Below, piece by piece: positions 26,029-42,013 of a DNA stretch of 64,000 nucleotides. Position numbers and translations under genes: made by a program. Where the stretch lies: contig NC_090399.1 in the NCBI RefSeq assembly GCF_036365525.1, positions 46,098,430 to 46,162,429 of the forward strand, in the 5' to 3' direction. Each line of letters begins with the position of its first letter. Position 1 is the first letter of the stretch. The stretch is from Heterodontus francisci. Lineage: Eukaryota. The notes beneath the pieces were generated by a model. That model was not told where the DNA came from and did no database searches. It saw nothing but the letters and a program-made list of their open reading frames with translations.

Positions 26029-26104
26029 CTGAGAGAGAGAGAAAGTGGAATCAATGCAGGATCTCCAATATAGAGAGTCACTCACTGACCCTCACTCAGA
26101 GAAT

Positions 26105-29100
26105 ACCCCATTAACTGACACTCAGACCCCCCCCTCACTCACTGACTCTCAGTCGCCCCCTCATTCACCGACTCTCAGTCTCCCCCTCACTCACCGACTC
26201 TCAGTCTCCCCCTCACTCACCGACTCTCAGTCTCCCCCTCACTTACTGACTCTCAGTACCCCCCTCACTCACCGACTCTCAGTCTCCCCCTCACTCATTG
26301 ACTCTCAGTACCCCCCTCATTCACCGACTCTCAGTCTCCCCCTCACTCATTGACTCTCAGTACACCCCTCATTCACCGACTCTCAGTCTCCCCCTCACTC
26401 ACCGACTCTCAGTCTCCCCCTCACTCACCGACTCTCAGTCTCCCCCTCATTCACCGACTCTCAGTCTCCCCCTCATTCACCGACTTTCAGTCTCCCCCTC
26501 ACTCACCGACTCTCAGTCTCCCCCTCACTCACCGACTCTCAGTCTCCCCCTCACTCACCAACTCTCAGTCACCCCCTCACTCACCGACTCTCAGTACCCC
26601 CCTCACTCAATGGCTCTCAGTCCCCTCCTCTCTCACTGACTCTCAGTCCCCTCCTCACTCACCGACTCTCAGTTCCCTCCTCACTCAATGACTCAGTCCC
26701 CTCCTCTCTCACTGACTCTCAGTCCCCTCCTCACTCAATGACTCTCAGTCCCCTCCTCCCTCACTGACTCTCCGTCCCCTCCTCCCTCACTGACTCTCAG
26801 TACCCCCCTCACTCAATGACTCTCAGTCCCTGCCTCACTCAATGACTCTCAGTCCCCTCCTCCCTCACTGACTCTCATTCCCCTCCTCACACACACACTC
26901 TCCGTACCCCCCTCACTCAATGACTCTCAGTCCCCTCCTCTCTCACTGACTCTCAGTCCCCTCCTCACTCACCGACTCTCAGTTCCCTCCTCACTCAATG
27001 ACTCAGTCCCCTCCTCTCTCACTGACTCTCAGTCCCCTCCTCACTCAATGACTCTCAGTCCCCTCCTCAAACACCGACTCTCAGTCCCCTCCTCACTCAA
27101 TGACTCTCAGTCCCCTCCTCACACACCGACTCCCAGTACCCCCCTCACTCAATGACTCTCAGTCCCCTCCTCACTCACTGACTCTCAGTCCCCTCCTCTC
27201 ACACCGACTCTCAGTTCCCCCCTCACTCAATGACTCTCAGTCCCCTCCTCAAACACTGACTCTCAGGCCCCTCCTCACACACCGACTCTCAGTTCCCCCC
27301 TCACTCAATTACTCTCAGTCCCCTCCTCACTCACTGACTCTGTCCCCTCCTCTCTCACTGACTCTCAGTTACCCCCTCACTCACTGACTCTCAGTCCCCT
27401 CCTCACACACCGAATCTCAGTTCCCCCCTCACTCAATGACTCTCAGTCCCCTCCTCACACACCGACTCTCAGTACCCCCCTCAATCAATGACTCTCAGTC
27501 CCCTCCTCACTCACTGACTCTCAGTCCCCTCCTCACACACCGACTCCAAGTACCCCCCTCACACAATGACTCTCAGTCCCCTCCTCACTCACTGACTCTC
27601 AGTCCCCTCCTCACACACCGACTCTCAGTTCCCCCCTTACTCAATGACTCTCAGTCCCCTCCTCTCACAATGACTCTCAGTCGCCTCCTCACTCACTGAC
27701 TCTCAGTACCCCTCCTCACTCACCGACTCTCAGTCCCCTCCTCACTCATTGACTCTCAGTCCCTTCCTCACTCACCAACTCTCAGTCCCCCCTCACTCAC
27801 CAACTCTCAGTCCCTCCTCACTGACCAACTCTCAGCCCCCCCTTCGCACTCACCAACACTCAGTACCACCGCTCACTCACTGACTCTCAGCACCCCCTCA
27901 CTCACCGACTCTCAGCACCCCCTCACTCACCGGCTTTCAGTCCCCCCTCACTCAACAACTCTCAGCCCCTACCTCACTCACCGACTCTCAGTTCCATTCT
28001 CACTCACCAACTCACAATCCTCTCCTCGATCACTGACTCTCAATCCCCCCTCACTCACTGACTCAGTCCCCTCCTCTCTCACTGACTCTCAGTTACCCCC
28101 TCACTCACTGACTCTCAGTCCCCTCCTCACTCACTGACTCTCAGTCCCTTCCTCACACACCGAATCTCAGTTCCCTCCTCACTCACTGACTCTCAGTCCT
28201 CTCCTCACACACCGACTTCAAGTACCCCCCTCACTCAATGACTCTCAGTCCCCTCCTCACTCACTGACTCTCAGTTCCCTCCTCTCTCACCGACTCTCAG
28301 TTCCCCCCTTACTCAATGACTCTCAGTCCCCTCCTCTCACAATGACTCTCAGTCCCCTCCTCACTCACCGACTCTCAGTCCCCTCCTCACTCACTGACTC
28401 TCAGTCCCCCCCTCACTGACTCTCAGTCCCCCCCTCACTCAATGACTCTCAGTCTCCCCCTCACTCACCGACTCTCAGTTCCCCCTCTCACTCACCGACT
28501 CTCAGTCTCCCCCTCACTCACCGACTCTCAGTCTCCCCCTCATTCACCGACTCTCAGTCTCCCCCTCATTCACCGACTCTCAGTCTCCCCCTCGCTCCCC
28601 GACTCTCAGTCTCCCCCTCACTCACCGACTCAGTCTCCCCCTCATTCACCGACTCAGTCTCCCCCTCATTCACCGACTCTTAGTCCCCCCCTTCTCACTC
28701 ACCGACACTCAGTACCCCACCTCACTCACCGACTCTCAGCGCCCCCTCACCCACCGACTCTCACTTTCCTCCTCACACACTGACTCTCAGTTCCCGCCTT
28801 ACTCAATGACTCTCAGTCCCCTCCTCGCTCACCGACTCTCAGTCGCCTCCTCACTCACTGACTCTCAGTACCCCCCTCACTCACTGACTCTCAGTCCCCT
28901 CCTCACACACCGACTCTCAGTTCCCCCCTTACTCAATGACTCTCAGTCCCCTCCTCTCACAATGACTCTCAGTCGCCTCCTCACTCACTGACTCTCAGTA
29001 CCCCTCCTCACTCACCGACTCTCAGTCCCCTCCTCACTCATTGACTCTCAGTCCCTTCCTCACTCACCAACTCTCAGTCCCCCCTCACTCACCAACTCTC

Positions 29101-41100: not shown

Positions 41101-41740
41101 ACTCTCAGTCCCCCCTCACTCACTGAATCTCAGTCCCCTCCTCACACACCGACTCTCAGTTCCCCCCTCACTCAATGACTCTCAGTCCCCTCCTCACTCA
41201 CTGACTCTCAGTCCCCTCCTCACTCGATGACTCTCAGTCCCCTCCTCACACACCGACTCTCAGTTCCCCTCCTCACTCACTGACTCTCAGTCCCCCCTCA
41301 CTCATTGACTCTTAGTCCCCTCCTCACACACCGACTCTCAGTCCCCTCCTCACTCACTGACTCTCAGTCCCTTCCTCACACACCGACTCTCAGTCCCCTC
41401 CTCACACGCCGACTCTCAGTCCCCCCTCACTCACTGACTCTCAGTCCCCTCCTCACACACCGACTCTCAGTTACCCCTCACTCATTGACTCTCAGTCCCC
41501 CATTACTCACTGACTCTCAGTCCCCTCCTCACACACTGACTCTCAGTCCCCCCTCACTCACTGACTCTCAGTCCCCTCCTCACACACCGACTCTCAGTTA
41601 CCCCTCACTCATTGACTCTCAGTCCCCCCTCACTCACTGACTCTCAGTCCCCTCCTCACACACTGACTCTCAGTCCCCCCTCACTCACTGACTCTCAGTC
41701 CCCTCCTCACACACCGTTTCTCAGTCCCCCCCTCACTCAC
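26105..41740. repeat. ~15.6 kb tandem array of a 26-bp unit (cactcactgactctcagtcccctcct) filling the alpha2-alpha3 intron
   Basis: Directly visible periodic C-rich plus strand, about 600 units by length. The many near-identical S/P/L/T/H-rich ORFs in the track are its translation. Confidence 0.99.
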
Positions 41741-42013
41741 TGGGTCTCAGTACTTGATCTTTGTACTGCAGGCAAAACTTCAGCCAGTGGATGCAGATAT
41801 TTTTCAGATAATAATTCCACCGCTGTTTATTGGCCATGTTCTGGTTCCAATTGTCCTGGACAGCATGTGCCCATGGTGCCTGTGCCACCCACTCCGCCTT
41901 ATCCAGGTCGAAGCTCATCATGTCTTGGCCGTCCCAGCCTATCTGGAGGAACTCACTTGTGTTCCCATTATCCTTCAGCTCACAGCCAGCCCTCAACTGG
42001 TCCACGTGTATCC
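41741..42013 (-). CDS. MHC class I heavy chain, alpha2 domain exon
   Basis: Acceptor ttgattcacag|GG ATA CAC and donor CCC A|gtgagt; 273 bp, phase 1/1, in frame with alpha1. GIHVDQLRAGCELKD...GWDGQDMMSFD...WVA...WN...YYLKNICIHWLK...LRP carries the C101-C164 pair and the DG-x-D motif. Confidence 0.96.

What the first reader, a model, noticed from the sequence alone, without database searches (positions are those of the whole stretch)
26029..41760. Giant intronic satellite built from the alpha2 exon's own splice-donor junction (hundreds of decoy 5' splice sites)
Seen: on the sense (minus) strand the true junction reads GTACTGAGACCCA|GTGAGTGAGGGGG, and the repeat unit reads GGACTGAGAGTCA-GTGAGTGAGGAGG. 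The array starts at the donor and fills all but ~75 bp of a 15.7-kb intron, with about 600 units, many carrying GTGAGT. Established: GTGAGT is a consensus U1-binding donor. Inference: the exon/intron boundary was tandemly amplified. The pre-mRNA could act as a U1 sink, undergo recursive splicing, or misuse donors; any extension of alpha2 hits TGA within two codons, so misuse would give truncated or NMD-bound transcripts. Array length could tune expression of this MHC gene.
Basis: partly seen in the sequence, partly recalled or inferred. Interest (0 to 1): 0.8.

Follow-up and report, generated by a model that had tools for sequence, protein, structure and literature searches.

The report
Giant splice-donor repeat in shark MHC
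A 26-base copy of an exon end and its splice signal is repeated about 600 times and fills a 15.7-kb intron of a horn shark MHC class I gene; the transcripts seen still splice at the first, true signal, so this is likely a harmless, unusually large case of a repeat type already known from human and lancelet genes.

Summary
The array is real. About 603 copies of a 26-bp unit start in the last codons of the alpha2 exon and fill all but about 85 bp of a 15,712-nt intron. About 290 copies carry GTRAGT, and 162 are predicted to pair U1 better than the true donor. The unit is not a genome-wide satellite: all 107 of 107 and 94 of 94 exact genome matches lie at the alpha2 donor or in the alpha2-alpha3 intron of class I genes. 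The array is a family trait (23 of 29 related paralogues, mostly 8-34 units). The unit fits a paralogue's Leu-Arg-Val exon end (25/26) better than this gene's own (23/26), so it likely preserves an older junction. Transcript contigs join the true donor to alpha3 in 4 of 4 runs (one sample) and in a second species. Recursive splicing has no sequence basis, 140 of 603 units have lost GT, and a donor-poor satellite reaches at least 35 kb in the same intron of a paralogue. Verdict: an extreme, family-wide case of a known kind (human F7/CBS VNTRs, amphioxus mirages), likely neutral.

The parts
26114..41751 (-). Array of about 603 copies of a 26-bp unit (GGACTGAGAGTC[A/G]|GTGAGTGAGG[A/G]GG), built of higher-order blocks; the first unit is the real exon/intron junction
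   Evidence: blocks of 0.6-1.5 kb at 92-99% identity; longest exact repeat 440 bp
41728..41753 (-). True alpha2 splice-donor junction (CCA|GTGAGTGA); exon ends 41741; in-frame TGA two codons into the intron
   Evidence: contigs of 4 of 4 runs leave the genome at 41741 and continue in alpha3
26029..41740 (-). alpha2-alpha3 intron, 15,712 nt, phase 1
26029..26113 (-). Unique 3' end of the intron with the only pyrimidine tract and acceptor; nearly identical in paralogues L001 and L003
   Evidence: 17 of 18 pyrimidines before this CAG; next best site 9 of 18
41741..42013 (-). MHC class I alpha2 exon
25765..26028 (-). MHC class I alpha3 exon
48955..49215 (-). MHC class I alpha1 exon; its own GTGAGT donor has no junction array
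14114..14218 (-). Connecting peptide and transmembrane exon
   Evidence: matches P0001
11326..11372 (-). Last coding exon of P0001 (short tail and stop)

Best explanation
This is a tandem repeat copied from the end of the alpha2 exon and its splice donor; it likely arose once in an ancestral shark class I gene, was likely inherited by most paralogues, and has likely grown to about 600 units here by ordinary satellite turnover, while transcripts are spliced at the first donor and the copies likely do nothing. The first donor would win because only it follows an exon with an upstream acceptor and it comes first in the transcript, as shown by experiment for human F7. The array has no acceptor, so it cannot form false exons. 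Any rare use of a copy would meet a stop two codons in and would likely be removed by nonsense-mediated decay. Shown here: anatomy, class I specificity, family distribution, correct splicing in contigs. Inferred: single origin, neutral growth, the selection rule, decay of mis-spliced RNA.
For: Specificity: 94 of 94 (23-mer) and 107 of 107 (19-mer) exact matches in the 6.0-Gb assembly fall in class I alpha2-alpha3 loci; reversed-pattern control 0. Family trait: at least 8 units in 23 of 29 paralogues with this junction type, none in 7 of 7 whose alpha2 ends AAAG|GT. Older junction: the unit matches L007's junction at 25 of 26 bases and this gene's at 23 of 26; alpha2 ends ELRV in related proteins of Mustelus, Cetorhinus, Carcharodon, Hemiscyllium, Scyliorhinus, Stegostoma and nurse shark. 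Splicing: true junction in 4 of 4 runs of one sample; seen from the acceptor side in 2 of 2 of those runs and in one run of a second organism and study. Decay of donors: 140 of 603 units lack GT, and the +1 G is kept in only 78% of units, against 92-98% at exonic positions -10 to -3. Size is not tied to donors: a 47-bp satellite with 8 GTRAGT fills at least 35 kb of the same intron in L030, and 51- and 37-bp arrays of several kb flank a proteasome exon nearby. Precedent: F7 pseudo-sites stay silent even when made stronger or more numerous (PMC1557585).
Against: Contigs drop rare forms and decay would hide mis-spliced RNA, so low-level use of copies is not excluded (tool notes; 76 records were not shown). 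The unit has stayed recognisable in paralogues whose alpha2 exons are only about 65% identical, which needs either continued homogenisation or some benefit. All 23 array-bearing genes have a stop within two codons of the donor and the 6 without do not, though this is only 2 independent changes (p 0.5). In human IFI6 (6-16) and CBS the nearest pseudo-sites are used (PMC1557585, introduction). No intron of another shark species was seen, so the age of the array rests on paralogues in one genome.
Confidence: 0.72

Rival explanations
1. The array is a regulatory reservoir of latent donors. Normally suppressed, the copies would be used under stress and send transcripts to decay or give a short secreted alpha1-alpha2 product; array length would set the size of this leak.
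For: 162 of 603 units are predicted to pair U1 more strongly than this gene's fairly weak donor (-10 against -6.5 kcal/mol; crude duplex score, U1 end recalled). Stop within two codons in 23 of 23 array-bearing genes and 0 of 6 others. Latent donors behind in-frame stops are activated by heat shock in human cells (PMC3510495, abstract).
Against: No array-to-alpha3 joint among the listed loose ends. Donors are decaying. The stop is part of the unit itself and the link rests on 2 independent changes. Copy number did not change site choice in F7 minigenes.
Confidence: 0.1
2. The shared G-rich array serves as common homology that promotes recombination or gene conversion between class I paralogues, swapping alpha1-alpha2 modules against alpha3 modules.
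For: L009 is 81% identical to L017 in alpha2 but 64% in alpha3, and 70% against 80% with L014; the window gene is about 65% against 89% with L010 and L014. The alpha3 data reject grouping L009/L027 with the L017 group and L038 (p-AU 0.02). The sense strand is 50% G with 518 runs of four or more G.
Against: The alpha2 data do not reject the alpha3-type grouping (p-AU 0.066), and the groups were named after the trees were seen. Different selection on alpha2 and alpha3 can give such patterns. No breakpoint was mapped, and the unique intron 3' ends follow gene groups.
Confidence: 0.1
3. The pre-mRNA acts as a U1 sink or is removed by recursive splicing through the repeats.
For: About 290 GTRAGT sites on the sense strand of one intron.
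Against: 0 YAG|GT sites and no pyrimidine tract in the array, so there is no recursive site. No AATAAA or ATTAAA to be masked. A few hundred sites on a few nascent transcripts are small against about a million U1 particles per cell (figure recalled, mammalian).
Confidence: 0.03
4. The repeat is real but its 15.6-kb length is inflated by assembly.
For: No spanning read was seen. A related array in L016 contains a 200-N gap, so arrays in this region do trouble the assembly.
Against: No N in the window. 165 distinct unit strings among 575. Longest exact internal repeat 440 bp. Higher-order blocks differ by 1-8%, unlike a false duplication.
Confidence: 0.05

Closest known systems
Human F7 intron 7 37-bp VNTR, and the like cases in IFI6 (6-16), CBS intron 13, LMNB2 and PDGF intron 4 (Borensztajn et al. 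2006, PMC1557585; I read abstract, introduction and passages of results and discussion)
   Same: First unit spans the exon/intron boundary; the donor is repeated head to tail into the intron; the most upstream donor is the one used; units carry G runs.
   Different: About 603 units here against 5-25 in those genes; fills almost the whole intron; has higher-order structure; many copies are predicted stronger than the true donor; shared across a multigene family.
Amphioxus 'mirage' minisatellites (Adh3, globins BflGb6 and BflGb9; PMC3087553, passages read)
   Same: Tandem duplications of an exon/intron boundary; many but not all units keep the splice signal; reported not to disturb normal splicing; concerted evolution within the cluster.
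   Different: Far more copies (BflGb6 has 3-6), a short 26-bp unit with only about 13 exonic bases, and retention across paralogues. Length instability between individuals was not tested here.
Latent 5' splice sites and suppression of splicing (Nevo et al. 2012, PMC3510495; abstract only)
   Same: Intronic donor-like sites preceded by an in-frame stop and normally unused.
   Different: Those are scattered chance sites. Here they are copies of the real donor. In F7 the stop-codon rule did not explain site choice (PMC1557585, discussion passage).
Elasmobranch multicopy nonclassical class I genes (UBA cluster in PMC10751288, passages read)
   Same: Host gene sits among multicopy class I genes and groups with nurse shark AAC60347 and horn shark AAC60348, which I recall as UBA-lineage sequences.
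   Different: The window gene and P0005 form a long-branch subgroup. That paper's main text does not contain the word intron.

Membership tests
Exon/intron-junction minisatellite (F7-type VNTR, mirage) | First unit spans the real exon/intron boundary | tested here: met
   Array starts at 41751, inside the exon that ends at 41741; 23 of 26 bases match the junction
Exon/intron-junction minisatellite (F7-type VNTR, mirage) | Donor sequence repeated head to tail in the intron | tested here: met
   463 of 603 units keep GT in register; about 290 GTRAGT sites
Exon/intron-junction minisatellite (F7-type VNTR, mirage) | Unit is local to the gene or family, not a dispersed satellite | tested here: met
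   94 of 94 and 107 of 107 exact genome matches in class I alpha2-alpha3 loci; diverged copies elsewhere were not searched
Exon/intron-junction minisatellite (F7-type VNTR, mirage) | Normal splicing uses the most upstream donor | tested here: met
   4 of 4 runs of one sample and one run of a second organism; contigs cannot exclude rare forms
Exon/intron-junction minisatellite (F7-type VNTR, mirage) | Copy number varies between individuals | not testable with these tools
   One assembly only; copy number differs widely between paralogues
Recursively spliced intron | Internal acceptor (pyrimidine tract plus YAG) directly followed by a donor | tested here: not met
   0 YAG|GT; no internal YAG with more than 9 of 18 pyrimidines
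Genome-wide satellite | Unit found at many unrelated loci | tested here: not met
Elasmobranch nonclassical class I, UBA lineage | Groups with reference UBA sequences | tested here: inconclusive
   Groups with AAC60347 and AAC60348 at 92/83 support; their UBA label is recalled, and the two defining papers were not held

The most novel reading that the evidence does not exclude
Shark class I genes carry an ancient donor-derived repeat, kept across nonclassical and probably classical genes, that works as a length-variable dial: hundreds of latent donors behind a built-in stop leak transcripts to decay under stress, or act as shared homology that swaps peptide-binding and alpha3 modules between paralogues. 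The family would then be a natural dose series (0 to about 600 donor copies, up to tens of kb) for how the spliceosome picks the first donor.
Probability: 0.15. Interest if true: 0.7.

Novelty: new member of a known kind. Interest (0 to 1): 0.35.

Why it matters
It takes a known oddity from tens of copies to about 600 and shows that a weak first donor is still the one used against about 160 copies predicted to be stronger. That makes it a strong natural test of position-based donor choice, with paralogues giving a series of copy numbers. The repeat also likely records an older exon end, which could serve as a marker of descent among shark class I genes. In practice, these arrays lengthen the alpha2-alpha3 intron to 15 kb here, 23 kb in L009 and perhaps more in L016, which could break assembly and annotation of shark MHC genes. 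I found no description in shark MHC in my searches, but the two main papers on these lineages could not be read.

Tried and rejected
Depletion of strong copies near the true donor: the first 29 units hold none, but internal runs of 39, 38 and 28 units also hold none, and L003 and L005 have stronger-scoring sites within 20 nt; rejected. Link between array and early stop: 23 of 23 against 0 of 6, but only 2 independent changes, p 0.5. Exon shuffling across the array: tree tests mixed. G-quadruplex: 0 matches with loops up to 12 nt, 127 with loops up to 25 nt; not pursued. No holder is on record as RNA; the four runs used are guessed RNA, but their contigs join exon to exon. No contig covered 41708-41739; a hole in contigs proves nothing. 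The alpha3 exon was not found within 25-65 kb of six paralogues (L005, L011, L013, L016, L029, L030), so their intron lengths are open. The leader exon of P0001 was not located in the window. A self-BLAST returned nothing and was redone. MaxEntScan and SpliceAI were not available. Look-ups of earlier notes by sequence and by genome found nothing. Supplements were not read.

Full report
Observation. Tandem Repeats Finder reports one array at 26114-41751 with a 26-bp period and 603.5 copies. On the minus strand it begins inside the last codons of an MHC class I alpha2 exon. The exon ends at 41741, the intron runs to 26029 (15,712 nt) and alpha3 starts at 26028. The alpha2 exon is identical to part of P0001, a 332-aa protein labelled by its source as a Heterodontus francisci class I-related protein. 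Its other exons map to 49215-48955, 14218-14114 and 11372-11326; the leader was not located. The unit matches the gene's own junction at 23 of 26 bases. GTRAGT occurs at 18.3 per kb in the intron and 0.42 per kb elsewhere on that strand of the window.

Is the length real? The window has no N. There are 165 distinct unit strings among 575, the longest exact internal repeat is 440 bp, and higher-order blocks of 0.6-1.5 kb differ by 1-8%. This looks like stepwise natural expansion, not a false duplication. No spanning read was seen.

Where the unit comes from. Exact searches of the 6.0-Gb assembly found 35 matches for a 35-mer, all in this intron, 94 for a 23-mer and 107 for a 19-mer (100 listed). 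Counting in the fetched class I loci accounts for 94 of 94 and 107 of 107. One cluster outside the first hit list proved to be a further class I gene with breaks (L038). So the unit is specific to class I alpha2 donors. Diverged copies elsewhere were not searched.

A family trait. I examined 36 loci: the 35 alpha2 hits and L038. Seven end alpha2 in AAAG|GT and have no unit. Of the other 29, 23 have at least 8 units within 3 mismatches of a 19-base core, mostly 8-34; the window has 579, L009 195 and L038 116. Ten of the 23 (L017-L026) are about 99% identical in their exons and three of those lie on small contigs, so they are not independent. The true junction of L007 matches the unit at 25 of 26 bases. 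It encodes Leu-Arg-Val, the alpha2 ending seen in related proteins of several other sharks, whereas this gene ends Leu-Arg-Pro. I infer that the repeat was born from an ancestral Leu-Arg-Val junction and outlived later changes in the exon. Transfer between paralogues by gene conversion could give the same pattern. On a tree of the 29 alpha2 exons, presence of the array changes only twice.

The host gene groups with nurse shark AAC60347 and horn shark AAC60348, which I recall as the nonclassical UBA lineage. PMC10751288 (passages) describes a multicopy UBA cluster away from the class Ia region. L009 and L016 lie within about 0.4-0.8 Mb of a proteasome subunit exon. AAC60349, whose alpha2 resembles that of L016, best matches PDB 6LUP (recalled as nurse shark classical class I). 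They may be classical genes; this was not settled.

Giant size is not special to donors. L009 has a 23-kb intron filled with a derived 30-bp unit. L016 has at least 65 kb of it with a 200-N gap and no alpha3 found. L030 has at least 35 kb of an unrelated 47-bp unit with only 8 GTRAGT sites, and arrays of 51 and 37 bp flank the proteasome exon. Large intronic satellites are therefore common in this region. In zebra shark, simple tandem repeats are richer on smaller chromosomes (PMC10620051, passages).

Splicing. Four runs guessed to be RNA, from one sample, give contigs that leave the genome exactly at 41741 and continue with the first bases of alpha3, at depths of 45-219. From the acceptor side, both of those runs that were laid show the alpha2 end, and a run from a second organism and study shows the same joint with one base changed. 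The other loose ends listed at the acceptor match true exon ends of L010 and an L003-like gene, or intron sequence; none is array sequence. Seventy-six records were not shown, contigs drop rare forms, and decay would hide mis-spliced RNA. Short contigs at depth 3-14 matched the array near 41661-41701, with letters that in most cases fit the L038 variant; they may be unspliced RNA or DNA.

Mechanism. By a crude U1 duplex score (U1 end recalled), 162 of 603 units beat the true donor, 134 equal it (the true one included), 167 are weaker and 140 have lost GT. The +1 G is among the least conserved positions (78%), which argues against selection to keep donors. The intron has one pyrimidine-rich acceptor, the real one, and no YAG|GT site, so neither false exons nor recursive splicing have a basis. 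In human F7, minigene tests showed that only the most upstream donor is used, whatever the strength or number of copies (PMC1557585). That rule is enough to explain what is seen here. A misused copy would give Ser-Glu-stop upstream of further junctions, which by established rules predicts decay.

Rivals. A stress-activated leak remains possible (PMC3510495, abstract). All 23 array genes have an early stop and the 6 others do not, but the stop is part of the unit and the link is not significant. A role in exon shuffling is hinted at by reversed alpha2 and alpha3 identities, but tests are mixed. A U1 sink is unlikely on numbers (recalled).

Relation to known systems. It works like, and meets the four tested features of, the junction-spanning minisatellites of human F7, CBS, IFI6, LMNB2 and PDGF, and amphioxus mirages (PMC3087553, passages). 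Length variation between individuals was not testable. It differs in scale and in being shared across a gene family. Earlier notes of this scan report similar repeats in a shark GIPC1 gene and a chimaera DCTN1 gene (unchecked). My searches found no account of it in shark MHC, but two key lineage papers were not held and no supplements were read.

Verdict. Real, class I-specific, a striking extreme of a known kind, likely neutral. Interest 0.35.

Noticed in passing
L003 and L009-L046, L050-L053 (G000:C29, about 66.28-66.35 Mb and 66.72-66.75 Mb): Two class I genes near a proteasome subunit gene, possibly classical, carry a derived 30-bp version of the repeat: 23 kb in L009 and at least 65 kb behind L016's alpha2, with a 200-N gap and no alpha3 found.
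   Followed up: partly
L030, L044, L056, L057 (G000:C29:66530900-66565799): An unrelated 47-48-bp satellite, present as 2-3 copies near the alpha3 acceptor of L017-L026 and L038, has grown to at least 35 kb in the alpha2-alpha3 intron of L030.
   Followed up: partly
L038 (G000:C29:54554100-54557800): A class I gene missed by the first search, with a shortened alpha2 end, a frame break in alpha3 and about 120 units of the same 26-bp repeat; array-like contigs in the RNA-type runs mostly fit its variant.
   Followed up: partly
L011, L012, L028; L013: In these paralogues the donor-like unit is replaced by other very G-rich repeats of several kb that have lost the donor motif.
   Followed up: no
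L017-L026 (C29 57.4-62.8 Mb and three small contigs): Ten class I copies about 99% identical in alpha2 and alpha3, spread over 5 Mb in both orientations: recent large duplications or unresolved haplotypes.
   Followed up: no
L013, L029: L013 has a frameshift near the end of alpha2 and L029 a stop inside alpha2; both look like pseudogenes.
   Followed up: no
window 23635-25074 and 14701-15066: Two arrays of a 35-bp unit lie in the intron after alpha3; not junction-derived.
   Followed up: no
window about 16000-20900, 42020-47600, 58892-60997: Broken retroelement pieces (Gypsy-like, CR1-like and a Penelope-like frame, by recalled resemblance) fill much of the remaining introns and flanks.
   Followed up: no
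L062 (G000:C29:65895000-65904999): A proteasome beta-subunit exon, likely PSMB8 by recalled resemblance, is flanked by arrays of 51 bp (at least 6.2 kb) and 37 bp (at least 3.3 kb).
   Followed up: no
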